This document shows, in pieces, positions 20,076 to 38,177 of a stretch of 64,000 nt of DNA. Numbering within the stretch: the stretch's first letter is position 1; each line of letters starts with the position of its first letter. The DNA is taken from positions 32,001 through 96,000 of the IMG/VR virus record IMGVR_UViG_3300032046_000005; one strand, written 5' to 3'. Made by a program: the position numbers and the translations under genes. Under the pieces are notes generated by a model that did not search any database, was not told where the DNA came from, and worked only from the letters and a program-made list of their open reading frames with translations. This DNA comes from a virus.

Positions 20076-20750
20076 CTATTTCATATAAAAAAGATTATGC
20101 GCTTCTGATTGAGTTCTTCTTGGAATATTGAAATATTCCATATTATTTCGAATAGTTGTTTCGTTTGTGTTTTTTAACTTAGCAATTTCAATAGCAGATT
20201 TTTGATTTTTTTCAAGTGTTCTTTCTTTCATATTTTTTTCTGTTAGCCAATATAATTCAATTAATTCTTTTTTTGTGAAATTTACACATTCATTTTGTTT
20301 CATATATTGTAATTTCTTTGATTCTCTTTGAGTTCTTTCTTTCATGTTAAAATTTTTCATATTTCTTAAAATTGTTTGTTTTGTACAATTTTTAATTTTT
20401 CCTATTTCATTGTTTGTTTTCTGATTAATATCTAAAATATTATGTTCCATATTATATTCAGAAATCCAATATAGTTTGATTAATTCTTCTCTTGAAAATA
20501 AAAAGATTTTTTTCTTTCTATCATTATGACATTTATCACATTTTTCTGTATAATCTTTTATATCTCTAGTATATGGATTAGGATGTTTGTTGAATGTCCA
20601 ACTTGTTCTGACTCTTCTTCCACAAATTTCGCATATTCCTTTTCTTGGATAATTTCTATTTAACCATATATGAATTGAATTATTACCTGCTTTATCTCCT
20701 TTCCAATTATGGTGGTTTTCTCTATATTTATATGACTTTTTCTTAATCAT
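20076..20750 (-). CDS. HNH-like homing endonuclease-related protein with two HTH modules
   Basis: NWKG...IHIWL..CEICG...CDKCH; two LIxLYW..E...EI.K...TI..N repeats; real ATG at 20750 (track extension is low-complexity). Confidence 0.6.
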   Translation of the reverse strand: MIKKKSYKYRENHHNWKGDKAGNNSIHIWLNRNYPRKGICEICGRRVRTSWTFNKHPNPYTRDIKDYTEKCDKCHNDRKKKIFLFSREELIKLYWISEYNMEHNILDINQKTNNEIGKIKNCTKQTILRNMKNFNMKERTQRESKKLQYMKQNECVNFTKKELIELYWLTEKNMKERTLEKNQKSAIEIAKLKNTNETTIRNNMEYFNIPRRTQSEAHNLFYMK

Positions 20751-20885
20751 ATATATAAAAACAACATCATCTAAGATTAATTTGATGATTATAAAATAAA
20801 AATATAAAAAAAAGAAAAAAAATAAAAAAATTAATTTGGTTCTTTCAAACCAATATTTCAATTAATAGTATTGTTAGAATGCTTC

Positions 20886-21857
20886 CTAAGTTAATGTCAA
20901 AGTGCCCGTCCGTTGTATGGCAGTGCTATATCGTTCAATCAAGCGTCCTGACCATATTAATAACCATTCGTAATATGCATTGTTGGTTCCACCACTATGT
21001 TCCATGTGAATCCTAAAAGGATATCCTTGAACTAATTCTAAGGTTGGTACAATTCCTCTAGATCCTCTAGCTTCTCGTTGTTTTGGAGCAATCATTGCCA
21101 TGCGGTATTTAACTCCTGAGTAATCAATGAAGTTAGGACTTGTTTCCCAATTTTGAATGTATTTCTTTTCGAGTATTCGTTGATGTTCAGTAATACCTAC
21201 TGTTGAAAAGAAATGGTTTTCTAATTCAGCGTATTTTTCTGTAGTTAAGTCTGAGAAAATTGGATATTTTGGCAAGTTATGTCCTGCAGTTAGCAAGGCA
21301 TTTTTCATTGTAACAATTGTTGCTAAATAGTCCCCAGCAGTTTGCATGTCATCGTCTCCATCAATTCCTCCAGCAATCGTTGTTCCTCCATTGAATATTC
21401 CAGTGAACTCTCCTTTACCTTTGAAAGGATCCATAGTTGATACTGGATTTTTCATTTCGTCTCCCCAAGCTAAAAATTGATCTACTTGGTTAACCATCAC
21501 GGGAATAGTTCTCTTGACTGTTTCTTTTATCAAATCTCCATTAATCAATTGATTGTTTTTAAATTTATCAACATCTTGTAAGGAAATCTGAACTTTACAA
21601 GCCAAGTAAAGTAATCCAATTGTGGTCTCGCCGAAACGAGGTACGATTATGTTAGCATCGTGTATTGAACTTGACATCTGTGCTCCATCTGGTTTCTTCC
21701 AATCAAAGTATGTGAGTTTATCTATACCTTCTCCTATGTTTCTTACTAATCCATTCGTATTAAAAAAGTTCCATAATGTCGGTTGTACAAGAACGAATTC
21801 CCATACATACTTTTCTATCGTTTTGGATAGTAATTCATTAAACATTTCGCCTACCAT
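20886..21857 (-). CDS. major capsid protein (HK97 fold, encapsulin/linocin-like)
   Basis: 323 aa, downstream of scaffold and decoration protein; QFLAWGD..TGIFNG spine-helix motif; C-terminal GRLIERYSTAI. Confidence 0.85.
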   Translation of the reverse strand: MVGEMFNELLSKTIEKYVWEFVLVQPTLWNFFNTNGLVRNIGEGIDKLTYFDWKKPDGAQMSSSIHDANIIVPRFGETTIGLLYLACKVQISLQDVDKFKNNQLINGDLIKETVKRTIPVMVNQVDQFLAWGDEMKNPVSTMDPFKGKGEFTGIFNGGTTIAGGIDGDDDMQTAGDYLATIVTMKNALLTAGHNLPKYPIFSDLTTEKYAELENHFFSTVGITEHQRILEKKYIQNWETSPNFIDYSGVKYRMAMIAPKQREARGSRGIVPTLELVQGYPFRIHMEHSGGTNNAYYEWLLIWSGRLIERYSTAIQRTGTLTLT

Positions 21858-21861
21858 GTGT

Positions 21862-22353
21862 TTAGTTCTTCACCCATCTGGCATAAAAGTATTTTCGAGT
21901 AGCGCTTGCACCTGTTACGGCTTCTAAAGCAATCATTTGAAAGTTATCGTTTGTATCTGCAACGGCAAACACTCCATCAACGCATTTGAGTTTATTCCCT
22001 TTCGCAATTGTAGTATTCGTTTCAGATAAAACAAGAATATCTATTCCTTGTTTTGGAACTCCTACACGAATCCACGAATTATCAGCAAAGGGATGATCAT
22101 AGTCTCTATAAAATATTCCAGTTGCATCAATTGTTTCTACTTGTGGCATATATTGTAATGCAAATCCAAAAATAGCTTCATTTTCTCCACATAAATCGAT
22201 ATCAGATTGTCCTGCTTCGCCATATTCTGTCACAGCCATACCAATTGCTATATCAGAACCAGTACATTGTCTATCAACCACTCTTTCCCATTGTCCCTTA
22301 TAAAGTAAAGTACTAATTGCTAAACCTATAAGAGTCGTTCCTAATGATACCAT
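21862..22353 (-). CDS. capsid decoration/cement protein
   Basis: IAIGMAV...FGFA...TIAKGNKL beta-tulip-like pattern, between scaffold and MCP. Confidence 0.7.
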   Translation of the reverse strand: MVSLGTTLIGLAISTLLYKGQWERVVDRQCTGSDIAIGMAVTEYGEAGQSDIDLCGENEAIFGFALQYMPQVETIDATGIFYRDYDHPFADNSWIRVGVPKQGIDILVLSETNTTIAKGNKLKCVDGVFAVADTNDNFQMIALEAVTGASATRKYFYARWVKN

Positions 22354-22359
22354 TTTTTA

Positions 22360-23562
22360 TTATGCCTCTAGAAAGTAACGTTTTTTCATATCATCTGCCA
22401 TAGATTTGAAGTCTTCTTCCTTTAATTCCGGTTCGATAAGATCTTCAGTATCTCTTTTGATTGCCATTTCAAATCGTTTTTCTAATTTTTCTAGTTCTTG
22501 AATCGAATCGTTTTTCAACTCTTCTACAGGAATTTGAAAATCGTTAGAAATTCTTTTTACGATTTCTTGTCGTTTAGCTTCTTTTTCTTTAGTTTCTTTT
22601 TCGTCAACTTTAGCCTTGAATGCAAGAAAGTCTTTTTTGAACGAATCTAATTCTTTATCAGCTTTTTCTTTATCAGCTTTTAAGGTTTTTAATTCTTCAT
22701 ATTTTGATTTCAAGAAATCGTATTCTTTAGCGCACACTTCAACAGTGTCACCTTTTTCTTTCTTTTCTCCAGGTTTTTCAGTTTCTGGTTCTTCCTCTTC
22801 TTCTTCCTCTTCTTTTTCAGGTTCTTTTTCTTCTTTAGTCATGTCTTTCTTTTCAGGTTCTTTTTCTTCTTTAATATCGCTTGTATTCGTATTTTCTGAT
22901 CCTTGTTTTTTCATTTTACTTTTCACTTCTTTCGCACACTGCTCCCTAGACTTTTTGGTTTGTTCCATGCATTGGGAAATTCTTCGTTCCATCATTGCCG
23001 TGGAACCATCCGGTTTAGTCTCGGAAGTTTGTGTCATTTCGAAATCCGTTTTACTTTCGCCTTTTGTTTCATTCTTAATAGCGTTTGTTTCGTTTTTACT
23101 CAAATTCGAATCGTCAACAATTCCATCTATTTCATCAAGCAACATGTCATCGGTAAAGTCTTTCTTACCTCTCATTGTCTTGAAAGCTTTAGCAAGTTTT
23201 GCTTTTGCTTGAATTGATTTACTATCTGAATTCAATCCAGCTTCTATGCATTTATCGCCTACTTTACCATCCTTTCCCATCAAACCTTTCGATTTACACC
23301 AAACTCTAAACGAACCTGGTTCTTTTACGGTTTCAGAAGGCAATGTTTCAGATTCAGAATCTTCGGAATTATCTTGTTCGTTCTCGTTAATAATATTGCT
23401 CAAATCTTTAGTTTCGATCACATCATCAGATTGACAATTGCAATCTTCAGTAGTATCTTCTTTCTTGAGATCCAACTTGTATATTTCATCGTCTTTGTCA
23501 ACATAGTAAAGATCGTTCTCTACTTGGTAAAAACGATGTTCTGAGTCTTTTACTTCAGACAT
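22360..23562 (-). CDS. capsid scaffolding protein
   Basis: Acidic, KEEKEPEK repeats, coiled coil, between protease and MCP. Confidence 0.75.
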   Translation of the reverse strand: MSEVKDSEHRFYQVENDLYYVDKDDEIYKLDLKKEDTTEDCNCQSDDVIETKDLSNIINENEQDNSEDSESETLPSETVKEPGSFRVWCKSKGLMGKDGKVGDKCIEAGLNSDSKSIQAKAKLAKAFKTMRGKKDFTDDMLLDEIDGIVDDSNLSKNETNAIKNETKGESKTDFEMTQTSETKPDGSTAMMERRISQCMEQTKKSREQCAKEVKSKMKKQGSENTNTSDIKEEKEPEKKDMTKEEKEPEKEEEEEEEEPETEKPGEKKEKGDTVEVCAKEYDFLKSKYEELKTLKADKEKADKELDSFKKDFLAFKAKVDEKETKEKEAKRQEIVKRISNDFQIPVEELKNDSIQELEKLEKRFEMAIKRDTEDLIEPELKEEDFKSMADDMKKRYFLEA

Positions 23563-23809
23563 TTATTTTTTGTCTTTTGGTTATTTAAAACAAATAGTAT
23601 ATTGTTATAAATAGATAATAATTTGTTTATATCTAATAGATTAATTGATTTTTTTTGTTCTTTTTTTCGTTTGAAATAGATTTTTTCAAGTTACAAAGAT
23701 CTTTTTCAGTTGTATCAAGACTTTTTTCGATTGAATCTCGAATCGTTATTTCTTGTTCGCGCATATAAATATATTAATACTTTTTTTAATCTAATATTTT
23801 TATTATTGA

Positions 23810-24646
23810 TTAATTATTAATGGTTTTTTTTACGCTTACAACACACGGTATGCCATTAGCGGTCGAGCAGCGATCCAAATCGGCGTTGGAGAGCGAAATT
23901 GCGAGGTGATCCAAATAAAGGATTTTCTGAATTCCGTTTTCAACTTCATCCTTAAACCCAATGCTCACATTATAACCACCTCTTTTCGGATTGAGTAAAT
24001 CTGTTACTTCGGCTATGTTTTTAAACATTACAACATCTCCATACATTACTTCTTTTTCATCATCAGGAGACCAGTTTGCAGCATAGCCAATGACTTCTGC
24101 AGCGTGGGCATTTTTTTCTATTGATCCTTTTAATGGAATATAATCAGTTTTTCCAAATACATCTTTGATATTATTCCATTCTTTCTTCAATATTATTTTT
24201 TGTCCGTCTTTTGTGTATTCAAATTCATTTGCTCGTGTAAGAATTCCATGTAAAACTGTGAAGTCCTCGTTCATTTTCTCGTTGAAGTCTTTCGTGATGT
24301 CGTTGAACGTGTCAATTTCAACGAAGTCTTCGGTCATATTATCAACGAAATCTTTTCTTGCACATTCGTCTCTACAAATTTCTTGTAAATCGCTCAAGAA
24401 ATGTGTAAATTCTTTTTGTAAATTTAGATCATTTTTAATTTCATCCCAATCGAGATGAAGTAAAGTATCATTATATACATCTATCGTTTCTCTTAAATCT
24501 TCAAGAAATATTTTGCTTTCTCCTCTCACATGTTCTTTTACTGAATGTTCGATTCCTTTTTTTGATGTTCGCTCATATTCAGAAACAGGATAATCTTCAG
24601 TAAAATCATTAATATTTCCAATGCATTTAGCGATTATCTTTTTCAT
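23810..24646 (-). CDS. DUF2213-like prohead maturation protease
   Basis: LTRANEFEY, H, NVSIGF, IQKILYLDHLAI..RC motifs; position in head module. Confidence 0.7.
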   Translation of the reverse strand: MKKIIAKCIGNINDFTEDYPVSEYERTSKKGIEHSVKEHVRGESKIFLEDLRETIDVYNDTLLHLDWDEIKNDLNLQKEFTHFLSDLQEICRDECARKDFVDNMTEDFVEIDTFNDITKDFNEKMNEDFTVLHGILTRANEFEYTKDGQKIILKKEWNNIKDVFGKTDYIPLKGSIEKNAHAAEVIGYAANWSPDDEKEVMYGDVVMFKNIAEVTDLLNPKRGGYNVSIGFKDEVENGIQKILYLDHLAISLSNADLDRCSTANGIPCVVSVKKTINN

Positions 24647-24957
24647 ATTATTTCATTACACTGTATATATTATGTGAATTATCAGGTTTTTTCTTTATGC
24701 ACGATCTTCCTTCGTAATGAACTCGACCACATTTTCTGCATTCTTTTTTTATTGTTGCTTTTTCCATTTTTACATCTTCATTTTTTTGTTAATTTTTAAA
24801 TGATTTTTAATTACTAATAATTTAATTCTTTTTATCTTCAACATCAACAATTCTTGCAATTCCCATCTTGACTAATTGTTGAGCTTGTTCTTCAGTAATA
24901 TCTTTTTCAATTATTGCTGAATCAAAAAAGATTTTATCGTTTTCTTTAAACTTGATT

Positions 24958-27360
24958 TCAATTATTCTTTTCATATTTTTTCATTCTTTCTCTAAAAAAT
25001 TTACTTATTTCCGGAAAGTATTGGTATTGTTTTTTATTTTCTTTCCAACTTTCCCAAATATATAAAGGTTTTTTTACTTCATAATATCGTTTAAAACTTT
25101 CAGCAAACAATTCTTGAACATCGTTAGCTTCATATCTCAATCCTTCAGCCATATTTTTTTTATATTCGTATTCAAAACTTCCTTTTTTATCATCTGCTTC
25201 TTTTTCCCAAATATCAGCATCATGTAACATTATTTTTTTGTATTTTTTATGAATGCTTTTAAAGATTTCTTGATCGTGCAGAGTTAATCCATACCAAACC
25301 GAATGTCCAAGTTCGTGTCTAGTAGTTGATGGCATTGCTTTTCTGTTTAATATTATATTATTGTTTCCAATCAAATAAACTCCTTCAATATCGTTATATT
25401 TTCTAGTCCAACCAACTTTTTTATATGCTTCTGGAACTTTTCCATTGTCATCTTTCATATTTGGGTCATCAGTTATTTGGTTATAAACTCTTACCTCATT
25501 TACCATTGCTTTTAATCGAAACGGAAAACTTCTGATTGTTTCGTCAATTACTCGAATTTCCCAAGGATCTCTCGTTAAATCTATGTTTTTATCAACCTTC
25601 AAACTTAATTCTGATTTTTGGTAAGGTTCGTCTGAAAAATAACCTTTATACAATATTGCATTCAATTCTTCTGGAGTATAATATTTTGGTTTAGGAGGAT
25701 TTCTAATCTTGTATAAATGTTGCCTTCCTACGGTTGAATTGAACCAATGATATGATTGACAAAATGTGCAAAAATATTTACGTTTCAAATCTTCGGTTAA
25801 ATCGTTAAAATCATTCAATTGCAAAACATTGAATTCATGAAAGTCAATGCGGGGCAATCCCAACACTCCTCCACCAGTTCTAAATCCTTTAATCTTCATT
25901 TCTCTCATTCCTTCTCTTGCTTGAAGCCATTTTTCGACTCTTGAACCAATGTCGGGATTTTGAGTTGGATTAGGAGTTGTTCGTTTCATTTGTCTTACAA
26001 TTTCGTCAAACTTCTTGACTCTTGTAACGGGAACTCGATTCGAAACCGTGTATGGAACTAATGATGCTGTTGTTCCTCCAATCGTTTTAATTTCTGGATG
26101 AAAATATGCGGGACCTAATTTTGATGATGTTACTTTTTCTCCTGCTTGATGTCCTCTAAGATTTTTCCACACCCAACGACCAGGAGAACCGCTTTTAAGA
26201 AGGGATTTCCACGCTTCTTCTGCTACTTCTGGAGATTGGAATTTATATCGATATGTTCTTTGAGGAGTTAACCCTTTTGGGTGAAATTGAACAAGTAATT
26301 CGTTATTGAATTGTCCTCCAGCTTTAACGTTTGTACTTGAAACAGGAGTGAGTTGTTTTGTGTATTTTTCGAGGTTTTCTAGTATTTCTCCTTGAATTTC
26401 AGCGCCAGTTTCTGTATTGGTTAACGAAAATGGAACAGTTATACTTTGAACTGGTCCAACTTCAAATGCTTCCTCGCCAAGTTGTGATCGAATCGATTTA
26501 CCAACGGTCGTTCGTTTAGCTCCAGAAATCATTGCACTAGGAGTTCCTTTCTTCAAACCTCTTATGTCTTCAGTGAAATCGTTTATTGTGTCAAATGTGT
26601 TTGCAATGTCTTCTAATGTTTCGCTTAATGATTTAGGTAAGGGATAATCTTCAACAAAATTATAAGCAATTATTCCTTTTTTGAGATAATAATCATTAAA
26701 TGTTTTTGAAGCAAATGCTTTATCAATAACAAGAGTTGGAATATTCAACAATCTTGCTAAAGTAATATCTCCTCTTCGTAAAAGATCAATATCTTTCCAA
26801 TCTTTTCTGGCTTTTTCTTTTACTGAAATAATTAATGGACTAATTCTTTTTGAACTTTCTATGATATCATACTTATCTCCATAAAATTCTTTCAAAAATA
26901 TATCTTTATCTAATTTTTCAATTTCTTTTATTAGATTTTCAGCAACTCCTTCAAAAGTTTCTGGAGGCAAATCTTTTATATCAACTTGTTTAGATAAAGT
27001 AGGAATTCCTATTGATTGTAAATAACAATCAAAACCTATAACTCCTATATTTGTTTCAAGAGCTTTTTTTAATTGTCTTCCACAAATTTCACATTTTGCG
27101 TGATATTCTTTTTTTATGATAATTTTATTTACTTTTATATTTTGTTTATTCTTTATAAGTTCTTTGTCTTTTTCAACTTTTTCTTTTTTATATTCTTCGA
27201 GTTTAATGATTTTGTTCTGTAATTGATTATGTAAATGTTCTTTACCAACATCAGAATCAAAGTAATGATTAGACTTGCAGATGTTACAAAAATATGTATT
27301 CTTGTTATCTAGAGCAATTTCTCCAATGCTTTCTAGATGTATTGGTTTATAAACTTTCAT
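24958..27360 (-). CDS. polyvalent head-associated protein: two Zn fingers, DUF6011-like finger, KTSC domain, C-terminal zincin metallopeptidase
   Basis: YFCNICKSNH..GKEHL; CEICGRQL..GFDC; VSSTNV..ELLVQF..TYRY..SGSPGRWVWKNLR; HELGH...ELFAESF; ATG 27360 follows GAGATA RBS. Confidence 0.7.
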   Translation of the reverse strand: MKVYKPIHLESIGEIALDNKNTYFCNICKSNHYFDSDVGKEHLHNQLQNKIIKLEEYKKEKVEKDKELIKNKQNIKVNKIIIKKEYHAKCEICGRQLKKALETNIGVIGFDCYLQSIGIPTLSKQVDIKDLPPETFEGVAENLIKEIEKLDKDIFLKEFYGDKYDIIESSKRISPLIISVKEKARKDWKDIDLLRRGDITLARLLNIPTLVIDKAFASKTFNDYYLKKGIIAYNFVEDYPLPKSLSETLEDIANTFDTINDFTEDIRGLKKGTPSAMISGAKRTTVGKSIRSQLGEEAFEVGPVQSITVPFSLTNTETGAEIQGEILENLEKYTKQLTPVSSTNVKAGGQFNNELLVQFHPKGLTPQRTYRYKFQSPEVAEEAWKSLLKSGSPGRWVWKNLRGHQAGEKVTSSKLGPAYFHPEIKTIGGTTASLVPYTVSNRVPVTRVKKFDEIVRQMKRTTPNPTQNPDIGSRVEKWLQAREGMREMKIKGFRTGGGVLGLPRIDFHEFNVLQLNDFNDLTEDLKRKYFCTFCQSYHWFNSTVGRQHLYKIRNPPKPKYYTPEELNAILYKGYFSDEPYQKSELSLKVDKNIDLTRDPWEIRVIDETIRSFPFRLKAMVNEVRVYNQITDDPNMKDDNGKVPEAYKKVGWTRKYNDIEGVYLIGNNNIILNRKAMPSTTRHELGHSVWYGLTLHDQEIFKSIHKKYKKIMLHDADIWEKEADDKKGSFEYEYKKNMAEGLRYEANDVQELFAESFKRYYEVKKPLYIWESWKENKKQYQYFPEISKFFRERMKKYEKNN

Positions 27361-28939
27361 TATCTCGTAAATTTCCCACACGAATCATTTTCACTTTCTT
27401 GAAATCTTTCTTATTTTTTGGTTCGAGAATCGTTTGAACCTTGAACTTGCCGTTCACGCGACAACCAACTGCTTTTTTACCTTTTCCAATGTTGAATGTT
27501 CGATATGTACCTTCTTCACATTCAGAAGGATCAAACTGTTGTTTTCGTATGAAGTTTTCAGTTTCGTGAATTTTTATCGTGTCTTTTGCAAATTTATGTT
27601 TGGCTCTTTCCTTTTCTTCCTCATATTCCATTTTCTGATGCTGTTTATGAGTTTCTTTATCAAGTTTTTCAAATTTTTTAGTTAATTTTGGATTATGGAC
27701 AATTTCTTCTTTTGTTTCTCCTTTAATTCCTTGTAATTCGTTCATTTCTCTTTCCAATTTCTTGATTTCGTGAATCAATCGAACTCTTTTTTCTATTTTC
27801 AAGTTTTTAGCTTTTTTGATTCTTTCATAATATTTAGCAAATGGAACGAGTGTTTTTTTCTTATGCGCTATGATATCCATCAAGATCATTATCAGTTCTT
27901 TAAGAACACTCTTAATGTTTGGATCGTTATCAGATAAGTGTCGTAATGTATCAACGCGTTTGTTAACTGCCTCTTGTTTTCTTTTCACGCGATAATTTTT
28001 CCATTCTTGATCTTTTTCTTTCTTTATTGATTCTTTTTTTGGATGTTCTTTATTGTGTTCTGATTCTGCTCGTTCTCGTTCGTATCCGGTTTGTTCGATC
28101 AACTTTTGAACTCCTTTTTCGCGTTCAGAAAGTTCTTTTTCTTTCTTGGTTGGTTTTTTAGGTTGTTTTGGTTCACTTGGTTCTTTCTTAATTACTTTCT
28201 TTTTCTTTACTTTTTCTTCTTTCAAGCCTTCGTAAAACTTTTTCTTGCTTTCTTCTTTTTCTCGTGGCGTTCTTTCCTTTTCCTTGTTTGCTATAAAGTT
28301 CTTAATTGCCTGTGCTTGAGTCTCTCCTTCGTTCATGCACACGTGTGTTCCTCTTATGGTTATCCAGTTGCATTTCGATGCGTCAAAATCTGTTTTTGAT
28401 TCAAAAACATTATTGATTTGCCATAAATTATTTTTTGGTAATTTGATTTTTGAAAATGCTTTAAATATGACTGCATATCTTATACTATCTTTATCTTCAT
28501 CTACTTTTTGAAATTCAATGTTCTTAATATCTTGTTTTGCAAGTTCATGTTCAAATTCTTCTTCATGACCTTTATCAATCCACACATCAATTTCTGTTTC
28601 TTTAAGTTCTTTTTTTTGTTTAACCAACTGTCTTTTTTCTCGTTGTTTTTCGAGTATTTCTCCTGTTTTTTCCCAAGACTGTTTCCATTCTGGTTGATTG
28701 TATTGTTCAAGTGATTTTTGACTCTTGTTCAAATGTTCTCTTCCTTTTTCAGAATCATAAAAATGATTGCTTTTACATATGTTGCAATAATAAGTATTTT
28801 TATTATCTTCCACAAAATCCTCGTCAAGATCCTTGAACACTTCCTCAAGCAAATCGCGCTCGTCAAAATCTGGATGTATTTTCTTTAATTCGTTGTATTT
28901 CCGAATTATCGTTTCGTGTTTGAAATCTGTTTCTAACAT
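27347..28939 (-). CDS. multimodular head-associated protein (Zn finger, WITIRGTHV module, RKQQFDP module)
   Basis: YYCNICKSNH..GREHL; WITIRGTHV resembles the WITxNGxH motif of phage head proteins; Lys/Glu-rich. Confidence 0.6.
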   Translation of the reverse strand: MLETDFKHETIIRKYNELKKIHPDFDERDLLEEVFKDLDEDFVEDNKNTYYCNICKSNHFYDSEKGREHLNKSQKSLEQYNQPEWKQSWEKTGEILEKQREKRQLVKQKKELKETEIDVWIDKGHEEEFEHELAKQDIKNIEFQKVDEDKDSIRYAVIFKAFSKIKLPKNNLWQINNVFESKTDFDASKCNWITIRGTHVCMNEGETQAQAIKNFIANKEKERTPREKEESKKKFYEGLKEEKVKKKKVIKKEPSEPKQPKKPTKKEKELSEREKGVQKLIEQTGYERERAESEHNKEHPKKESIKKEKDQEWKNYRVKRKQEAVNKRVDTLRHLSDNDPNIKSVLKELIMILMDIIAHKKKTLVPFAKYYERIKKAKNLKIEKRVRLIHEIKKLEREMNELQGIKGETKEEIVHNPKLTKKFEKLDKETHKQHQKMEYEEEKERAKHKFAKDTIKIHETENFIRKQQFDPSECEEGTYRTFNIGKGKKAVGCRVNGKFKVQTILEPKNKKDFKKVKMIRVGNLRDNESL

Positions 28940-29013: not shown

Positions 29014-29850
29014 TTAGATTGTTTCATTATTTTTTTCAATTTCTTTCAATCGATTGCATAATGGTTGATTTTTGTTCAATACAGACGAATATACTTGCCA
29101 ATTTCGTTCAGAAGGATTGATTGGAATCATTATAGGACGACCAAACGAGGGAAAATTCAAGAAATCTAACATTTCGTTGAAAGTTGATATTGTATAATTG
29201 TTCAAGTCTTCTAATCTGAATTTCTTGCATCTTGGATCGTTAATTTCTTTACCATATACAAGTTGATAATGTTCTTCAGTTTTTCTCATTGCAGTTTCTC
29301 TTTGTTCTCCAGTCCATTCTACATTAAAGTATAATTCATGTGCTTTTATCATTGTATCGTGATCTCTTTGAACGATTACAACTCTATCGTATTGATTTTC
29401 ATCTGGATCTTTTTTGTTTAAAAGTGCTTGAGGATCAACGTTATATACATTATTCCATTTTTTAGGCAATGGCAATCGGTTTCTTGTAGCGATCAAAGCA
29501 GAAATTTCGGTATTTTTTTTGGTTACGAATTCGATTGGAATGCCAAACATTGATTCATGAATATTGCTCAAAATTTTAATGATCCAACTGATTCCACACC
29601 TTTCTTGACTTACAAAAATTGTGTTGAGTTCATAAGGAAGCTTATTATTTAACTTTGGAAGATATGGTTTAATGTAATCTCTTCTCAAGTATAAATAATT
29701 CTCTTTTGAAATCCAATTATGCAATCTACATTCTAAATTAACACATTCTACATCAAAAAACAATTCTCCATTGCTATCAATTGCTTGTTTCAATAATAGA
29801 GGGTTTAATATTTCTCCACAATTTTTACATTTCATGATATAACACTTCAT
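29014..29850 (-). CDS. Zn ribbon plus sulfotransferase-like domain
   Basis: IFVSQERCGISW (5'-PSB-like), VVIVQRD (3'-PB-like), LEDLNNYT. Confidence 0.55.
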   Translation of the reverse strand: MKCYIMKCKNCGEILNPLLLKQAIDSNGELFFDVECVNLECRLHNWISKENYLYLRRDYIKPYLPKLNNKLPYELNTIFVSQERCGISWIIKILSNIHESMFGIPIEFVTKKNTEISALIATRNRLPLPKKWNNVYNVDPQALLNKKDPDENQYDRVVIVQRDHDTMIKAHELYFNVEWTGEQRETAMRKTEEHYQLVYGKEINDPRCKKFRLEDLNNYTISTFNEMLDFLNFPSFGRPIMIPINPSERNWQVYSSVLNKNQPLCNRLKEIEKNNETI

Positions 29851-30583
29851 AATCTCTTTTCATTTGTTCTGCAGTCAAGTTTCTCCATGTAATTTTATTC
29901 TTATTTTCGTTTTGTTTCATTAGTAAATCACGATCAAAAACTTTTGATCCGGCATAATGAATTATATGCGAATCAAATCGATTAGGAGAAAAATATGTTA
30001 TATGATTAAATTTATAACTTAGATTATAAATCTCAAACCTTAGTTTTCTAATCATATAATTTAAATAATCTTGTTCTGGAGTAACAATACCATTTATTTT
30101 TTGTACATTATTTATTTCTTCTATTGTTGTATTAAAGATTTCTTTATGTTGTCTAGAAGCAACTATAACTCCTGCGTTCATATAACCTGATTTCCAATTT
30201 AAATCACCCAAATGTTTTTGTATGTTTATAATTCGTTCATTTCTGTTTGATTCTGGTATTCCTTCATCTTCAAAAATGCCACCAATTTTATTTTCTGGAA
30301 CAATTTCAAATATATTTGGACAATTAGGAGTAATAATAACATCATAATCCAATCTAAGTATCCTATCGTATTTATCAAAAAGTTCATATATTTGATTCTT
30401 TTCAAACAAATTAATATTAGAATAAGTATCAAATGGTTCTATGTTATATTTCATTTGTGTTATAATTTCTAAATGCAAGTTATATTTTTCACAATACTTT
30501 AAAACTGATGGTTTACAAACTTCCCACTCTTTACTTTCTCCAATTACTATTGGAACAACAACATTAACAGGCTTATTTCTCAT
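29825..30583 (-). CDS. GT8-like glycosyltransferase
   Basis: ILRLDYD, YMNAGV, EQDYLN, IIHYAG. Confidence 0.85.
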   Translation of the reverse strand: MRNKPVNVVVPIVIGESKEWEVCKPSVLKYCEKYNLHLEIITQMKYNIEPFDTYSNINLFEKNQIYELFDKYDRILRLDYDVIITPNCPNIFEIVPENKIGGIFEDEGIPESNRNERIINIQKHLGDLNWKSGYMNAGVIVASRQHKEIFNTTIEEINNVQKINGIVTPEQDYLNYMIRKLRFEIYNLSYKFNHITYFSPNRFDSHIIHYAGSKVFDRDLLMKQNENKNKITWRNLTAEQMKRDYEVLYHEM

Positions 30584-30734
30584 GTTTTATCATCATTCAA
30601 ATAAAATTTCCCATCTTTTTCTTTCCAACAAAAATGTTCTGGAGGATATTCTTTATTGATTGCCCGATATAAATCTTCTTTATTCCTTATTATTTTTTCT
30701 AGTTCTTTCAATAACTTTCCTTTTTCATTTTTCA

Positions 30735-31439
30735 TTATTTACTACTCCTCGCTGAAAAGTTTGTAAAATCAATCATGTTTGAACCTTTTTCAACAACTAA
30801 AAAATATTCGTAAAATCTAAAAGGTAATTTATTTGTAAAATTTTTATTTGAAAAATCTCCTCGCTTTAAGAAATAATATTCTGACAACATTTTATGATTT
30901 TTTTCGTTTAATTGAGTTTGTAATTCAATTACATCAGTAAATGAATTAGGATGTCCTTTTTTTTTAGCTAATATTTCAGCATTACGAGCTAATTTATCAT
31001 TTCCGAAATAATTTATATTTTTTCCGGTAATTAATAATTTCCCACCTATTTTCAAAACTCTTAACATTTCAGAAAGCGATTTTTCTTGTTCTAAAGCGTC
31101 AAATGTTGCCATGCATATTACACGATCAAAAAAATCACTATGAAATGGAAGTCTTTCTGCTTCAGTCTTTATTATTTCAACGGTATTATCATTTGAATGT
31201 TTTTTTGCTTCATTTATCATTTTTTCTGAAATATCGATTGCATATACTTTTACATCAAGTTTTGAATAATATTGAAACAATCTTCCAAAACCACATCCGA
31301 CTTCCAAAACTTTACCTTGTATGTTTGTTTGGCTAATCATCCATTCAATAACATCATCATTAGGAACTTCTTTTATATTTTTTACTTTTTCTTTCCAATA
31401 ATCGTAATAATTGTTCCAATATTCTTCTTTACTATTCAT
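30735..31439 (-). CDS. class I SAM-dependent methyltransferase
   Basis: VLEVGCGFG, AIDIS, AERLPF..FD, RVLKIGG. Confidence 0.9.
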   Translation of the reverse strand: MNSKEEYWNNYYDYWKEKVKNIKEVPNDDVIEWMISQTNIQGKVLEVGCGFGRLFQYYSKLDVKVYAIDISEKMINEAKKHSNDNTVEIIKTEAERLPFHSDFFDRVICMATFDALEQEKSLSEMLRVLKIGGKLLITGKNINYFGNDKLARNAEILAKKKGHPNSFTDVIELQTQLNEKNHKMLSEYYFLKRGDFSNKNFTNKLPFRFYEYFLVVEKGSNMIDFTNFSARSSK

Positions 31440-32745
31440 GTAAAACCCTTCTTTTTATTGTATTAGAATCAACATCTAAAACAACGATTTCAGTCATACC
31501 ATTATCTGTATTAGAAGCAATTCCTATTTTATCTATTGCTTTTTTAGGAAGCGTATAAAAATCAAAAGTGAAAGTCCACCAATTATCACTACGATAATCC
31601 AAATTTTGCCAAATGTATTCACCAGATTTAGTTTTGATTGCAAGAAAAGGTTGAGTTCCAAATATGTTATTTTCTGATATTACATTTAATCTTGAAGAAT
31701 CAAAAGTAAGACTGAATTTGGGAGGGTTTAAATTGGTCGTGTTTGTGACATTTCTTATTCCTTCATTGGCATTACAATATCTAAATTTAACATCTGGATA
31801 TTCTCCTGATACAATTCGTATCATATTTTGTGTTCTATTAATTTCCTTTTTCATATTTCTATAATCGTGATCAGCAAACGAAATCAAGGTTGGTAAACCT
31901 TCTGAAGCTCGTTTGAATCCATCTCTAAAATCATTAATTGAAATTTCTTTTACTCTCGCTTCCATATTCAAACATCTTGCAATCAAACGATGACAATTTC
32001 CTTTTTCTTGATAATCTCTATAATCTGGATGATACGGCATCCATTCTAAAGGAGCATGTCGCCAATCTCCAAAACGTCCATCAGATAAATCAAATTGTTC
32101 TGATGTATTTATTTTCATTGAACTGTTTCCATAAACAAAAGGAATCCATTGTTCAAAAAAATAAGATAAGTCTGGTCTTTCTATACCAGAACGAACTGCA
32201 GAAGGAAACCACAAACGATCTATTATCTTTCTTGCCAATGTTTCATATATTATGGGAGAATAAGTATTTCCTGTTAAGTGAGCATCTTTCTTTATTGAAA
32301 TGGGATGAAAATGAAACTGAATTTCGTCTTCTTTATATTTAAGGTAATGATCGAAAATGTTATGAAATCCCATATCTCGTCTTCGTGGATTTTCTCCCAT
32401 AAAACCGACCCAATCGATACAAAACCAAGTATATTTCCATCCATTTTCAAACGAATCTGGAAAATTATGTCTAAAATCTTTTGATGTAATTTCATTTAAC
32501 ATCACATCTATTTTATCCCAAGTATCGTTATAATCTAAGAGTTCTAGAGAAACCATTTCGGCAATTGCCTTATCTTTTCCCTGTCTTAACATTTCTAAGT
32601 TTTGGAGAGTAGGTTCATACTTTACTCCAAAAATATCATAAATTCGTTCAAATGTAGCTTCTGAAGATTCATATAATGGTCCTTCTGTATCTACACAATG
32701 AACAATATTTACTATTTTTTCATTCTGGATATTCGGAACGAACAC
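31432..32745 (-). CDS. polysaccharide deacetylase-like (NodB-type barrel) protein
   Basis: HCVDTEG, TWF, FHFHP, VRSG, DWR motifs. Confidence 0.6.
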   Translation of the reverse strand: MFVPNIQNEKIVNIVHCVDTEGPLYESSEATFERIYDIFGVKYEPTLQNLEMLRQGKDKAIAEMVSLELLDYNDTWDKIDVMLNEITSKDFRHNFPDSFENGWKYTWFCIDWVGFMGENPRRRDMGFHNIFDHYLKYKEDEIQFHFHPISIKKDAHLTGNTYSPIIYETLARKIIDRLWFPSAVRSGIERPDLSYFFEQWIPFVYGNSSMKINTSEQFDLSDGRFGDWRHAPLEWMPYHPDYRDYQEKGNCHRLIARCLNMEARVKEISINDFRDGFKRASEGLPTLISFADHDYRNMKKEINRTQNMIRIVSGEYPDVKFRYCNANEGIRNVTNTTNLNPPKFSLTFDSSRLNVISENNIFGTQPFLAIKTKSGEYIWQNLDYRSDNWWTFTFDFYTLPKKAIDKIGIASNTDNGMTEIVVLDVDSNTIKRRVLHE

Positions 32746-33617
32746 GATTTACACACATCAATTAAATGAGATTTTTTTTCATCCATCAGTTTTCGAATTT
32801 GAGCAAATTCTTTTCCTAACCAAACATCTTCAATTGTATCTGTATTGATATCTCCTAAGATTTTGTTATCTCCACGCGTTCCACAACATAATACCATTTT
32901 TCCATCTGCTCTTATTGTCATTCGTTGATATATGCTTTCACAAAAGAAATCAGAAGGGTTTTCCATATTGCGAAGATTAATATAATCTTCACAATATGGA
33001 CTTATTCTAATAACATCAGCATAATGCTTCCAAAACTCTTCATATTCTCCTGATTCTATTTCTTCTTTATTCAATGCCATGAGAATTGCTTGAATTTGTA
33101 TTCGGGGTTTTTTTGATTGGTATTCTTTTCGTAATCTGTTTAGTCCATTTAAACCATTAATTACTTTGTTTAAATCTCCATTTACTCGTAATTTTTTATA
33201 TGTTTCTTGGATAAGCGAATCAATTGAAAAAATAATGAGGTCTAAACCACTTTTTATTAATTTAGAAGATATTATATCAGTTAATAAAGTTCCATTTGTT
33301 GCTAACATTACATCGACAATTCCTTTATCTTTTGCATATTTAATTGCTTTTCCTAAGTTTTTATATAATAAAGGTTCTCCAAGATAGCACAATTTAACAG
33401 AAGAACCGCCTTTTTCAGCAAATTCGTCTATTATTTTTTCATACATTTCAAATGGCATATCAAGTAATTCTGGAGGATGTGATGTGTGTTCGCAAAATGC
33501 ACATGAAAGATTGCATCGTGTTGTGATTTCAATATCTGTGTGGATTGGAGTTTTATCTACAATTCGTAGTTTAGGATAATTTTCCCATTTCCAACGATAA
33601 GTTTCATAATCAGTCAT
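32712..33617 (-). CDS. radical SAM/SPASM protein
   Basis: CNLSCAFC, GEPLL, TNG, SID, C-terminal C...DG..LCC...CKSC. Confidence 0.9.
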   Translation of the reverse strand: MTDYETYRWKWENYPKLRIVDKTPIHTDIEITTRCNLSCAFCEHTSHPPELLDMPFEMYEKIIDEFAEKGGSSVKLCYLGEPLLYKNLGKAIKYAKDKGIVDVMLATNGTLLTDIISSKLIKSGLDLIIFSIDSLIQETYKKLRVNGDLNKVINGLNGLNRLRKEYQSKKPRIQIQAILMALNKEEIESGEYEEFWKHYADVIRISPYCEDYINLRNMENPSDFFCESIYQRMTIRADGKMVLCCGTRGDNKILGDINTDTIEDVWLGKEFAQIRKLMDEKKSHLIDVCKSCSFRISRMKK

Positions 33618-33618
33618 T

Positions 33619-34512
33619 TTATAACAATCCTAATATTTTCAAAGCATCTGGCATTAGTTCTCTATAAATTCTAAAAGATCTACAATGTTGTAATTTATAT
33701 TCTTCTGGAGTTAACACATAAGGGTTTGGAAGAGTGGGATCGTGCGTAAATTGAGTATATTCCATTTTTTTGTTCGGATCTCCTTTTTCTTCCATTTTTA
33801 AGAAATCTCCTTTTGCATATTCACCAGTAGGATCTTGATTTTGAATGTCAATACTCATGGGATCTAAACCCCAATCTTTTGCTATTTGACACGACATTAC
33901 GTTCCAATTCCTTAATGGAGTATTGAAAGGAACTAAGCAAGATCGTATTGGATTGTCTTTCAAATATTGCAATATTTGGTTTTTATCCATTTCGTTCAAA
34001 TGAGTTTCGACATGATTAATTACATCTGGATATGTGTGTTTTGGATATTCTAAGAAGTCTAGTAAATCGCTAAATGTTGGTTCTGTATAGTTGTTTAAAT
34101 TACCTAAATCAACTAAATACATTCGAGGATCTTTAAATTCGTGATTATAACACAAATCATAGTAAAATTCGCATTCTTTCAAGAAATCAGGACATTTTTT
34201 CAATGTTTCATCATAAGTTAATTCAGGACATCTATATATTTGCATTGCTTTCATATAACTCTCTTTATCTCGTTTTATAATGATGATTTTATCGTATGGT
34301 CTATTCAAGAGTTTCAAGGGATTTATCAGCAAAACTTCGTTAAATCCTTTTGGAAAATAATATTTATCAATAGTTGCTAAAATTCTACTAATTCCAAAGT
34401 TCCAATTCATTATTTCTCCATACATTTTTTTATGAATTTCTGATATGATGCCACATACCCATGATGCTCCACATCTTTCTACACTTACTATAATTATGTT
34501 TTTTTTAATCAT
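33619..34512 (-). CDS. sulfotransferase-like protein
   Basis: IIVSVERCGASW, IIIIKRD, NLNNYT; paralogue of 29014..29850. Confidence 0.55.
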   Translation of the reverse strand: MIKKNIIIVSVERCGASWVCGIISEIHKKMYGEIMNWNFGISRILATIDKYYFPKGFNEVLLINPLKLLNRPYDKIIIIKRDKESYMKAMQIYRCPELTYDETLKKCPDFLKECEFYYDLCYNHEFKDPRMYLVDLGNLNNYTEPTFSDLLDFLEYPKHTYPDVINHVETHLNEMDKNQILQYLKDNPIRSCLVPFNTPLRNWNVMSCQIAKDWGLDPMSIDIQNQDPTGEYAKGDFLKMEEKGDPNKKMEYTQFTHDPTLPNPYVLTPEEYKLQHCRSFRIYRELMPDALKILGLL

Positions 34513-37604: not shown

Positions 37605-38177
37605 TTAGTCAAAATTCCTAATTTTTTCTCTCATTCCTATTTTTTTGCAAGGAGAACCGACGTAAATCGTCCAAGGTTCTAAGTCTTTTAACGCCAATGA
37701 ATTAGAACCGAGTATTGCTCCATCTCCAACCGTGATACAAGGATGAACGATTGAATTAGTTCCTATGACTACATCTTTACCAATATACATTCTTCCTCTT
37801 TTTATATTTTGTTGATTATTTGGAACAGATGCAGTCATGTGAAAGCCTCCTTGATGCAAGTTTGAACCTGTAACCAAACGAGAACCAGCGGCTAATGCGC
37901 TATAATCTCCCATTTCTAATTCCCCTCCTCCTACTATGCTTACAAACGATGCAATATGAACATATTTTCCAATCTTGATTCCCATTCCTCCGTAAAGAAA
38001 TGTAAAATCGTCAATCATGGAATAATCTCCGATTTCTATGACTTCTGGATTTACAAACTTAGCCTGTGGAAAAATTTTTACATTCTTTCCAAAACTTTTG
38101 AAATCATTTGACATTAATTTACGATATCCGTTTTCTAATTTTATTTTTGTTAGGCAATCGATTATTTCATTTGGCAT
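37605..38177 (-). CDS. hexapeptide-repeat (LbH) sugar acyltransferase
   Basis: IEIGDYSMI, IKIGKYVHI, IGKDVVIG, VGDGAILG, GSPCK. Confidence 0.9.
   Translation of the reverse strand: MPNEIIDCLTKIKLENGYRKLMSNDFKSFGKNVKIFPQAKFVNPEVIEIGDYSMIDDFTFLYGGMGIKIGKYVHIASFVSIVGGGELEMGDYSALAAGSRLVTGSNLHQGGFHMTASVPNNQQNIKRGRMYIGKDVVIGTNSIVHPCITVGDGAILGSNSLALKDLEPWTIYVGSPCKKIGMREKIRNFD

What the first reader, a model, noticed from the sequence alone, without database searches (positions are those of the whole stretch)
22360..28939. D|F punctuation across head proteins: predicted Asp-directed processing of cargo polyproteins by the DUF2213-like protease
Seen: the DF dipeptide, often as (N/E)DF(T/V)ED, occurs 5 times in the protease, all in the first ~128 aa and none in the catalytic part. 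It also occurs 6 times in the scaffold, 5 in 27347..28939, 3 in 24958..27360 and 7 in the portal (5 in terminal extensions), but never in MCP or the decoration protein. INDFTED is shared verbatim by the protease and 24958..27360. Motifs sit at module borders: EDFVED|NKNTYYC (Zn finger), KTDFD|ASKCNWIT, NDFTED|IRG (KTSC block), NDFNDLTED|LKRKYFC. Established: T4 gp21 and phiKZ gp175 cut internal head proteins at short acidic motifs. Inference: an archaeal-virus system for packaging and releasing small effector modules, with DF(T/V)ED as cleavage and/or capsid-targeting signal.
Basis: partly seen in the sequence, partly recalled or inferred. Interest (0 to 1): 0.8.

Follow-up and report, generated by a model that had tools for sequence, protein, structure and literature searches.

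The report
Asp-Phe motif marking internal head proteins
A two-residue Asp-Phe "DF box" recurs far more often than chance in the proteins that sit inside the capsid of this uncultured large tailed virus and its relatives. It never occurs in the shell protein, and it is most likely the mark where the virus's own capsid-maturation protease cuts, though cutting has not been shown.

Summary

**In the window.** All DF counts are exact: 19 in four adjacent head genes against 5.6 expected, and 0 of 20,000 shuffles reach 19. Of 168 genes in the genome, the four most DF-enriched are the scaffold, the 530-aa protein, the portal and the protease. The signal is at protein level.

**The 278-aa protein.** It is a prohead protease by fold (VZV protease Z 10.1, T4 gp21 Z 9.0). 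Ser228, His181 and His247 are conserved. It matches no Pfam model, DUF2213 included.

**Its homologues.** In 117 homologues, DF is 3.2-fold enriched (771 against 238), while the reverse dipeptide FD is 1.09-fold. DF is 4- to 5-fold enriched in the extensions and depleted to 0.38-fold inside the catalytic domain. Consensus: [TK][SN]DF[TVI][ED]D. Glu cannot replace Asp. Met and Leu can partly replace Phe.

**Syntenic metagenome relatives.**
- Scaffolds: 41 against 8.8, at conserved positions.
- 807/530-like proteins: 23 against 8.8.
- MCP: 0 against 4.6.
- Tail genes: 14 against 16.3.
- DΦ boxes sit where modules are fused or split between relatives.

**Interpretation.** Only partly supported. 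A maturation cleavage signal is the best reading (about 0.5), and a capsid-docking motif without cleavage is the main rival (about 0.3). "Asp-directed", "effector release" and "archaeal" are not established; only a weak hint points to Asgard archaea. This is a new variant of T4/phiKZ-type motif-directed head maturation.

The parts
23810..24646 (-). Prohead (capsid maturation) protease, 278 aa. The N-terminal 129 aa carry 5 DF boxes. The catalytic domain spans residues ~130-278 (nt 23813..24259).
   Evidence: AF2 model: catalytic domain pLDDT ~97; residues 1-22 and 99-110 below 50. VIA-align: VZV protease Z 10.1, T4 gp21 (5jbl) Z 9.0. Foldseek: herpesvirus proteases prob 0.96-0.99; 63 BFVD hits, including 'prohead serine protease' and 'DUF2213 domain-containing'. 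Conservation across 106 aligned domains: S228 106/106, H247 103/106, H181 89/106. DF at residues 14, 99, 107, 120 and 128.
24245..24340 (-). Pre-domain block (residues 103-134) with three conserved DF boxes (107, 120, 128) directly before the first strand (…DF-TVLHG).
   Evidence: D107/F108, D120/F121 and D128/F129 are invariant in 4 homologues at ~50% identity and largely kept in 9. Family-wide, 122 DFs lie within 10 residues before the domain start in 111 proteins. DF or DM sits at position -2 in 57 homologues.
24587..24622 (-). N-terminal junction box of the protease (residues 9-20, CIGNINDFTEDY), followed by the small EDYPV…HxRG module.
   Evidence: IGN…D[FLM]TED is conserved in homologues, with F replaced by L or M. 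The same box lies inside 807-like proteins. The module recurs 6 times in P0087.
22360..23562 (-). Scaffold-like protein, 400 aa, with 6 DF boxes (residues 135, 173, 282, 311, 341, 384).
   Evidence: It lies between the protease and the decoration/MCP genes in all syntenic loci and is fused C-terminally to the protease in many homologues. Orthologues carry 41 DF against 8.8 expected. Five DF positions are conserved in the alignment and replaced only by DM or DL. There is no Pfam or PHROG hit, so the role is inferred.
24958..27381 (-). 807-aa multi-module protein: Zn-finger, KTSC-like block (~residues 300-500), junction box with 2 DF (residues 505-532, nt 25786..25869), second Zn-finger, HExxH zincin (~residues 600-807). 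A further DF box lies at residue 268 (nt 26575..26580).
   Evidence: KTSC E = 0.0088. ATLF PF07737 E = 1.9e-4 in two orthologues; Pro-Pro endopeptidase 6r54 E = 0.021. H689, E690 and H693 are invariant. All 3 DFs lie between modules. The conserved junction is DF..Y[IV]GN[IV].D..D[FLM].[TI]ED.
27347..28939 (-). 530-aa Lys/Glu-rich protein with an N-terminal Zn-finger and a C-terminal module. DF boxes at residues 5, 24, 41, 184 and 512.
   Evidence: Its C-terminal module (residues 271-507) is fused directly to the protease in loci L012 and L013. There the DΦ box after '…ILEPK' is kept as DL.
43140..45077 (-). Portal protein, 645 aa, with 7 DF: 3 in the ~145-aa N-terminal extension, one at residue 574 at the start of the C-terminal tail, and one at residue 638.
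   Evidence: PF06381 E = 3e-10; phrog_146 E = 1e-14. In 75 homologues: N-extension 3.26-fold, core 2.67-fold, C-extension 3.45-fold. DF at reference position 574 is kept in 67/75, with DL or DM in 6.
20886..21857 (-). Major capsid protein, 323 aa, with no DF.
   Evidence: ESM Atlas nearest clusters are PF09950 Major_capside / Linocin_M18, score 0.98. Six orthologues carry 0 DF against 4.6 expected, p = 0.0096.
21862..22353 (-). Decoration/cement-like protein, 163 aa, with no DF.
   Evidence: phrog_766 'head decoration', weak, E = 0.04. Nine orthologues carry 1 DF against 3.5 expected.

Best explanation
The DF box (consensus [T/K]-[S/N]-D-F-[T/V/I]-[E/D]-D, tolerating D-M and D-L) is a genuine short linear motif. 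It marks the proteins that are built into the interior of the prohead in a clade of large, uncultured tailed viruses.

The most likely mechanism is motif-directed proteolytic maturation, in these steps:
1. The assemblin-fold serine protease (Ser228/His181/His247) is co-assembled with the scaffold.
2. It recognises DF boxes in flexible linkers.
3. It trims its own N-terminal extension. In relatives where the protease is fused to the scaffold, it also trims the C-terminal extension.
4. It chops the scaffold into pieces of roughly 20-50 residues that can leave the shell.
5. It trims the terminal extensions of the portal.
6. It separates the modules of the two large packaged proteins (530 aa and 807 aa).
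7. The shell and decoration proteins carry no DF and stay intact.

Shown: the motif, its specificity, its distribution, its conservation, and the protease fold with its conserved residues.

Inferred: that the box is cut at all, which bond is cut, and that the assemblin-fold enzyme does the cutting.
For: **Enrichment.**
- Window: 19 against 5.6; 0 of 20,000 shuffles reach 19.
- The four most DF-enriched genes of 168 are all internal head proteins.
- 117 protease homologues: 771 against 238. FD control 1.09-fold.

**Distribution.**
- Extensions 4.1-fold (N) and 5.4-fold (C); catalytic domain 0.38-fold.
- DF accumulates in the 30 residues before the domain. It is present even when the N-terminal piece is only 8-14 residues long.

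**Chemistry of the motif.**
- 32% of all Phe in the extensions follow an Asp.
- EF 0.70-fold, DM 2.0-fold, DL 1.36-fold, DY 1.14-fold. This points to a pocket-like specificity.
- The median spacing between boxes is 23 residues.

**Relatives.**
- Scaffold 41/8.8, with conserved positions swapped only for DM or DL. 807/530-like 23/8.8. MCP 0/4.6. Decoration 1/3.5. Other genes 14/16.3.
- The boxes coincide with fusion and fission points of modules.
- They lie in low-pLDDT segments.

**Protease identity.** Fold matches; invariant S228, H247, H181, R138, R259 and K155.

**Precedent.** SPN3US gp245 cuts after A-X-E, makes several cuts per propeptide, and removes a 254-residue portal propeptide (PMC10052503).
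Against: - No neo-termini or other experimental data exist, and the virus is uncultured.
- The same distribution is predicted by a pure docking motif.
- In the C-terminal scaffold half the boxes sit in predicted helical, coiled-coil-like sequence, which is less obviously accessible.
- DF within 30 residues after the catalytic domain is no more frequent than elsewhere in the C-extensions: 62% against 53%, p = 0.13. A dedicated 'release site' is therefore not demonstrated.
- The portal core also carries conserved DFs, and those are probably structural.
- Orthologues are not independent samples, so the MCP and decoration depletion is weaker than the raw p-values suggest.
- Known gp21-type enzymes cut after Glu. 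No [L/I/A/S]-x-E excess is seen here, so the specificity would be new for this fold.
Confidence: 0.5

Rival explanations
1. The DF box is a docking (capsid-targeting or co-assembly) motif and is not cut. Multivalent acidic-aromatic peptides would bind a pocket on the inner face of the encapsulin-like MCP, or on the scaffold. They would recruit the protease, scaffold, portal and cargo into the prohead, much as the T4 capsid-targeting sequence or encapsulin cargo-loading peptides do.
For: - The same distribution data apply.
- The receptor candidate (MCP) and the external decoration protein lack the motif.
- The MCP is closest to PF09950/Linocin_M18 (encapsulin-like) clusters.
- The motif is very dense and multivalent: 53% of 30-residue windows in the C-extensions hold a DF.
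- Scaffold boxes are positionally conserved within helical sequence.
- There is no junction-specific excess after the protease domain.
- The T4 capsid-targeting-sequence concept is described in PMC3012670.
Against: - A docking motif gives no reason for DF depletion inside the catalytic domain (0.38-fold) or its absence from the MCP.
- The boxes sit exactly between modules that are separate genes in some relatives.
- A protease of this fold must have substrates, and no other candidate motif is enriched.
- The two roles are not exclusive.
Confidence: 0.3
2. The DF excess has no shared function. It would be a structural habit of these helical, Lys/Glu/Asp-rich proteins, for example a helix-start feature. 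It would be inherited within each family and made to look general by the mild genome-wide DF bias.
For: - Genome-wide DF O/E is 1.47 and FD 1.45.
- The portal core has conserved DFs in folded parts.
- Scaffold DFs lie at conserved alignment positions, so many counts are inherited rather than independent.
Against: - FD is not enriched in the protease family (1.09-fold) and is depleted in portal N-extensions: 14 against 36.
- The excess appears in non-homologous, unalignable extensions of representatives that are no more than 50% identical.
- Other genes of the same loci are at 0.86-fold.
- DF is the top outlier among all dipeptides and all four-gene runs.
- The flanks carry a consistent consensus.
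Confidence: 0.12
3. The boxes are cut, but by the HExxH zincin at the C-terminus of the 807-aa protein. Polyvalent proteins are predicted to self-process in this way. The cut would fall on the N-terminal side of Phe/Met/Leu, a P1' preference common among zincins.
For: - The HExxH motif is invariant.
- ATLF-like and Pro-Pro-endopeptidase-like hits.
- The F > M > L tolerance fits a hydrophobic S1' pocket; this rests on established knowledge of thermolysin-like enzymes and is an inference.
Against: - The DF excess tracks the assemblin-fold protease family and flanks its catalytic domain.
- Loci L011 and L013 have DF-rich scaffolds but show no zincin-bearing neighbour in the sequence available.
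Confidence: 0.08

Closest known systems
T4 gp21 and phiKZ gp175 / SPN3US gp245 motif-directed head maturation
   Same: - Assemblin/gp21-fold prohead protease (Z 9.0 to 5jbl).
- One short motif recurs in the protease itself, the scaffold or core proteins, packaged internal proteins and, in SPN3US, a long portal propeptide.
- Propeptides carry several motif copies (PMC10052503).
   Different: - The motif is D-F, not [L/I/A/S]-x-E, and no x-E pattern is enriched.
- The MCP has no motif and no evident delta or propeptide domain, whereas the T4 and phiKZ-like MCPs are cut.
- The protease matches no Pfam model.
- Cleavage is not shown here.
Herpesvirus assemblin (pUL26-type protease-scaffold fusion with release and maturation sites)
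   Same: - Best structural match: VZV protease Z 10.1; Foldseek prob 0.99.
- A conserved Ser and two His in the order His…Ser…His.
- Many homologues are protease-scaffold fusions.
   Different: - Assemblin cuts at (V/L)-x-A|S at two defined sites (established knowledge).
- Here the motif is dense (about every 23 residues), and a dedicated junction site is not statistically supported.
Pfam DUF2213 (PF09979) prohead protease/scaffold proteins of DUF1073-portal / DUF2184-MCP head modules
   Same: - Same gene order and partner families: PF06381 portal and PF09950-like MCP.
- DUF2213 proteins are among the BFVD fold neighbours.
   Different: There is no HMM match for the query or for 39 homologues. 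The resemblance is of fold and context only.
Polyvalent proteins of phages and conjugative elements (Iyer et al. 2017; from own knowledge, not read here)
   Same: Large head-module proteins that string together unrelated small modules, here Zn-fingers, a KTSC-like block and a zincin peptidase. The modules are shuffled, fused and split among relatives.
   Different: - No Mu-F/SPP1 gp7 anchoring domain was found.
- Module identities rest on weak hits.
- A common junction box (DF..YIGN..DΦ.TED) shared with the prohead protease has not, to my knowledge, been described.
T4 capsid-targeting sequence and encapsulin cargo-loading peptides
   Same: A short conserved peptide is shared by otherwise unrelated proteins that end up inside an HK97-fold shell (PMC3012670).
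   Different: Those are single terminal tags. Here the boxes are internal, multiple and also present in the scaffold and portal.

Membership tests
Assemblin/HK97-gp21-fold prohead serine proteases | Characteristic beta-barrel fold of herpesvirus assemblin / T4 gp21 | tested here: met
   Model pLDDT ~97 over residues 130-278. VZV protease Z 10.1, rmsd 3.3, 114 aligned. T4 gp21 Z 9.0, rmsd 3.1, 119 aligned. Foldseek herpes proteases prob 0.96-0.99. 63 BFVD hits with E <= 1e-3, mostly prohead proteases.
Assemblin/HK97-gp21-fold prohead serine proteases | Conserved catalytic Ser and His, plus a third His or acid, in the order His…Ser…His/acid | tested here: inconclusive
   S228 106/106, H247 103/106, H181 89/106 with 11 alignment gaps. 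The order and spacing fit.
Assemblin/HK97-gp21-fold prohead serine proteases | Encoded in the head module between the portal and the scaffold/MCP | tested here: met
   Order on the minus strand: TerL, portal, (glycan island), 530 aa, 807 aa, protease, scaffold, decoration, MCP. The same order holds in 14 metagenome loci.
Assemblin/HK97-gp21-fold prohead serine proteases | Proteolytic activity on head proteins | not testable with these tools
   Needs expression and mass spectrometry.
Pfam DUF2213 (PF09979) | Match to the family HMM at or near the gathering score | tested here: not met
   No Pfam family at E <= 0.1 for the protein. None of the family at E <= 0.01 in 39 homologues.
T4/phiKZ-type motif-directed maturation | One short motif over-represented in internal head proteins and in the protease's own pro-regions | tested here: met
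T4/phiKZ-type motif-directed maturation | Cleavage C-terminal to Glu in an [L/I/A/S]-x-E motif | tested here: not met
   No such gapped pattern is enriched in the extensions. DF is the only strong outlier, and EF is depleted.
T4/phiKZ-type motif-directed maturation | Neo-termini at the motif in mature virions | not testable with these tools
   No proteomic data for this uncultured virus.
Polyvalent (multi-module, head-packaged) proteins | Several unrelated enzymatic or binding modules in one polypeptide of the head module | tested here: inconclusive
   KTSC E = 0.0088, below the cut-off. ATLF-like zincin E = 1.9e-4 in 2 of 5 orthologues; 6r54 E = 0.021. Invariant HExxH. Module shuffling among relatives.
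Archaeal tailed viruses | Evidence for an archaeal host (provirus, spacer match, archaeal-type replication or transcription genes) | tested here: inconclusive
   Nearest named cellular homologues of the viral 4,6-dehydratase are Thorarchaeota (54% identity) and Promethearchaeota MAGs. A DnaG-type primase and an XPD-like helicase are uninformative or bacterial-like. No provirus in 185,579 species genomes. One portal homologue is binned to a PVC bacterium MAG.

The most novel reading that the evidence does not exclude
The DF junction box (DF..YIGN..DΦ-TED) is a dual 'address and scissors' signal. It would both load any module placed behind it into the prohead and mark where the prohead protease frees it. 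On this reading, a clade of large, possibly Asgard-archaeal, tailed viruses evolves its packaged protein cargo by plug-and-play shuffling of modules between the protease, scaffold and polyvalent genes. The specificity (Asp-Phe) would be new for assemblin-fold proteases.
Probability: 0.2. Interest if true: 0.8.

Novelty: new variant of a known kind. Interest (0 to 1): 0.6.

Why it matters
**If the DF box is the cleavage signal.** It would define the substrate code of a large, unannotated family of capsid-maturation proteases: 116 representative clusters and no Pfam model. It would allow mature virion proteins to be predicted from sequence alone for a whole clade of uncultured large viruses from sediments. 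It would also add an Asp-Phe specificity to a fold so far known to cut after Glu, Ala, Lys or Phe.

**If it is a docking signal.** It would be a portable tag for loading proteins into an encapsulin-like shell.

**Either way.** It explains why modules are freely fused and split in these head operons. It also gives a short, testable peptide for bench work, which needs only recombinant proteins.

Tried and rejected
**Searches that found nothing.**
- Pfam and PHROGs gave nothing for the protease, scaffold, MCP or 530-aa protein.
- A PDB sequence search with the protease profile gave nothing.
- The first AF2 run, with 4 sequences, was useless at pLDDT 40. It was rescued with a 39-sequence alignment.
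- IMG/VR scans with the protease, two protease alignments, the MCP and a portal alignment all found no relative. One alignment was too divergent to scan.
- Two genome-contig scans (protease, portal) found no provirus, so the host could not be fixed.
The contigs of the 116 homologues could not be fetched, so only 14 JGI/WGS loci gave context.

**Readings rejected.**
- A DNA-level motif: frame distribution 26/1/1.
- A glycosylation sequon: Thr after DF occurs in only 17% of boxes.
- A T4-like Φ-x-E reading of F-[TV]-E: an acid at +2 occurs in only 30% of boxes against 20% after other Phe.

**Not supported.** A dedicated release site right after the catalytic domain was tested and is not significant.

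**Not possible.** Model coordinates are not exposed. Whether R138, R259 and K155 line the S1 pocket could therefore not be checked.


Full report
**What is there.** The window is part of a 115.6-kb linear IMG/VR virus record with about 28% G+C. On the minus strand it carries a tailed-virus head module in this order:
- large terminase, 50026..51828 (phrog_38)
- portal, 43140..45077 (PF06381 and phrog_146)
- a 12-kb sugar-biosynthesis island
- a 530-aa protein, 27347..28939
- an 807-aa protein, 24958..27381
- a 278-aa protein, 23810..24646
- a 400-aa Lys/Glu/Asp-rich protein, 22360..23562
- a 163-aa protein, 21862..22353 (weak 'head decoration' hit)
- a 323-aa protein, 20886..21857

The 323-aa protein's nearest ESM Atlas clusters are PF09950 Major_capside / Linocin_M18, score 0.98.

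The portal's seven DFs are at residues 75, 108, 118, 239, 367, 574 and 638. The four adjacent genes hold 19 DF against 5.62 expected from composition, giving Poisson p = 7e-6. None of 20,000 within-protein shuffles reaches 19.

The genome has a mild general DF excess (O/E 1.47; FD 1.45). With that as background the excess remains, at p of about 4e-4 to 9e-4.

I addressed the post-hoc choice of dipeptide in two ways. First, DF in this gene run is the strongest excess among all dipeptides and all runs of four adjacent genes in the genome. Second, ranking all 168 genes by DF excess puts the scaffold-like protein, the 530-aa protein, the portal and the 278-aa protein in the first four places.

The signal is in the protein, not the DNA. 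GAYTTY occurs 26 times in frame and once in each other frame, and all four synonymous codon pairs are used.

**The 278-aa protein is a prohead protease by fold, not by Pfam.** Pfam, PHROGs and a PDB sequence search gave nothing. A profile search of 1.84 billion representatives found 116 homologues of 84 to 1733 residues. They share the C-terminal ~150 residues.

With 39 of them as the alignment, AlphaFold2 gave pLDDT of about 97 for residues 130-278. Residues 1-22 and 99-110 fell below 50.

Structural matches:
- VIA-align: varicella-zoster virus protease Z 10.1; T4 gp21 Z 9.0.
- Foldseek: herpesvirus proteases at probability 0.96-0.99.
- BFVD: 63 viral proteins at E <= 1e-3, named prohead serine protease, HK97-family protease or DUF2213 protein.

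Conservation across 106 aligned domains:
- Ser228 is invariant.
- His247 is present in 103 and His181 in 89, with 11 further sequences gapped at that column.
- The order His…Ser…His is that of assemblin.
- Arg138, Arg259 and Lys155 are also nearly invariant.

No homologue matches DUF2213. 'DUF2213-like' is therefore true of fold and gene context only.

**The motif is a property of the whole family.** In the 117 homologues DF occurs 771 times against 238 expected (3.24-fold), while FD is at 1.09-fold.

Relative to the catalytic domain:
- N-terminal extensions: 4.1-fold.
- C-terminal extensions: 5.4-fold.
- Inside the domain: 0.38-fold.
- There is a sharp pile-up in the 30 residues before the domain.

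Even homologues whose N-terminal piece is only 8-14 residues long carry a DF in it.

In the extensions 32% of all Phe residues follow an Asp, although Asp makes up 7% of residues. DF is the top dipeptide at O/E 4.5, followed by TP (2.1), VW (2.1) and DM (2.0). DL is at 1.36, DY 1.14, DW 0.82 and EF 0.70. The requirement is therefore Asp, not merely an acid, followed by Phe > Met > Leu.

The flanks give [T/K]-[S/N]-D-F-[T/V/I]-[E/D]-D. No [L/I/A/S]-x-E pattern of the T4/phiKZ kind is enriched. The median distance between successive boxes is 23 residues.

**Syntenic relatives replicate the gene-by-gene pattern.** One metagenome scan returned 14 loci with the same gene order. Leaving the window itself out, the counts are:

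| Gene class | DF observed | DF expected |
|---|---|---|
| Scaffold orthologues | 41 | 8.8 |
| 807/530-like proteins | 23 | 8.8 |
| Proteases (whole protein) | 22 | 10.6 |
| Decoration proteins | 1 | 3.5 |
| MCPs | 0 | 4.6 (p = 0.0096) |
| All other genes (tail and others) | 14 | 16.3 |

In the scaffold alignment five DF positions are conserved. Where they change, they change to DM or DL; for example, the window has KLDL where eight relatives have KLDF. Orthologues are not independent, so these p-values overstate the evidence. The direction is nevertheless uniform.

**The boxes sit at module junctions.** In the 807-aa protein all three DFs lie between modules. Orthologues share a junction box, DF..Y[I/V]GN[I/V].D..D[F/L/M].[T/I]ED, after the KTSC-like block. 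Behind it, different modules follow in different viruses. The protease's own N-terminus (CIGNINDFTED) is the second half of that box.

Relatives rearrange the modules:
- In L012 and L013 the C-terminal module of the 530-aa protein is fused to the protease, with a DL box at the joint.
- In L005 the KTSC-like block is fused to the protease.
- Many distant homologues are protease-scaffold fusions whose C-extensions are dense with DF.

The module-border claim is therefore supported by comparative evidence. One caveat applies: a DF directly after the catalytic domain is no more frequent than elsewhere in these extensions (62% against 53% of windows; p = 0.13).

**Portal.** In 75 homologues the N-extension is 3.26-fold enriched (FD 0.39-fold) and the C-extension 3.45-fold. 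The folded core is also enriched, at 2.67-fold, through a few conserved columns. The DF at reference position 574, at the start of the C-terminal tail, is kept in 67 of 75. The portal therefore fits the pattern only partly.

**Mechanism.** The distribution is what motif-directed maturation predicts. The pro-regions of the protease, the scaffold, the portal extensions and the packaged proteins carry the mark. The shell, the external decoration protein and the enzyme's own catalytic domain avoid it.

The closest documented case is SPN3US. Its protease gp245 cuts after A-X-E, removes a 254-residue portal propeptide, cuts its own propeptide and cuts long propeptides at several motif copies (PMC10052503). 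I rate cleavage by the assemblin-fold protease as the best explanation, at about 0.5.

I cannot say which bond is cut. The most conserved instance is DF-TVLHG, where TVLHG is the first strand of the domain. D|F or DF| would fit.

The main rival, at about 0.3, is a docking motif in the manner of the T4 capsid-targeting sequence (PMC3012670) or encapsulin cargo peptides. It predicts the same distribution, and the two roles may coexist. A structural habit without shared function (about 0.12) is hard to reconcile with the FD controls, the unalignable extensions and the normal counts in neighbouring genes. Cleavage by the HExxH zincin of the 807-aa protein (about 0.08) fits a hydrophobic P1' preference but not the tight link between the motif and the assemblin-fold domain.

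The 807-aa protein has:
- an invariant HExxH
- weak ATLF-like and Pro-Pro-endopeptidase-like hits
- a sub-threshold KTSC hit

'Polyvalent' is a fair description. 'Effector' is not shown.

'Archaeal virus' is not settled:
- The nearest named cellular homologues of the viral 4,6-dehydratase are Thorarchaeota and Promethearchaeota MAGs.
- The relatives come from sediment metagenomes.
- The genome also encodes a DnaG-type primase and GIY-YIG/NUMOD3 endonucleases.
- No provirus was found.

**Earlier notes of this scan.** First readers had noted the same stretch before in other windows of this genome. No look-alike was recorded on other DNA.

**Verdict.** The motif is real, statistically robust and family-wide. 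It is a new variant of a known kind of system.

Noticed in passing
window 24647..24957 and 23563..23809 (minus strand): The two gaps flanking the protease gene hold small unannotated ORFs: a 50-aa ORF, a 39-aa CxxC…C zinc-ribbon-like ORF, and a 43-aa ORF. In relatives the protease and scaffold genes abut directly.
   Followed up: partly
protease residues 17-45 (window ~24512..24598); P0002, P0087, L009, L011, L012: A ~30-residue mini-module (EDYPV-x-EY-x-R…VK-x-H-x-RG) follows the DΦTED box. It is duplicated in P0002, occurs 6 times in the 1415-aa P0087, and appears inside scaffold and 807-like proteins of relatives. Its function is unknown.
   Followed up: partly
P0004, P0011, L012:2029-3897: A second recurrent linker motif, TF[ST]SLGLK[RK][RK], occurs in protease N-extensions. 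It loosely resembles encapsulin cargo-loading peptides and is an alternative candidate targeting or cleavage signal.
   Followed up: no
C-termini of P0011, P0013, P0019, L012, L013 and other homologues: A conserved element, (I/V)HD(Q/H)NL-x-EV, follows the protease domain in many homologues. It contains an L-x-E that would fit a T4-type site. It is absent from the window's protein.
   Followed up: no
window 58256..58954, and genome 22538..24013 (L017:2538-4013): A second MCP-like gene (about 23-34% identity to MCP orthologues, over up to 288 aa). Also a 491-aa protein whose residues 175-333 are 52% identical to a decoration-protein orthologue. These are paralogues of head genes elsewhere in the genome.
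   Followed up: no
window 29014..41354 and the portal: The sugar-biosynthesis island seems conserved next to the portal across the clade. Many dehydratase homologues and portal homologues have identical longest-contig lengths (for example 27641, 27568, 88391, 64312), which implies the same contigs.
   Followed up: partly
window 20076..20861: An HNH-endonuclease-like gene (phrog_7545 E = 7e-6) lies between the MCP and the next head-tail gene. L011 has nothing there, and L003 has an unrelated opposite-strand ORF. This suggests a mobile insertion.
   Followed up: partly
window 25712..28812: The C2H2-like mini zinc-finger (Y-x-C-x2-C-x3-H-x-F-x-S-x2-G-x2-HL) occurs three times in the 530-aa and 807-aa proteins. 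It also occurs in a separate 217-aa gene in L003, where it is preceded by a DF.
   Followed up: partly
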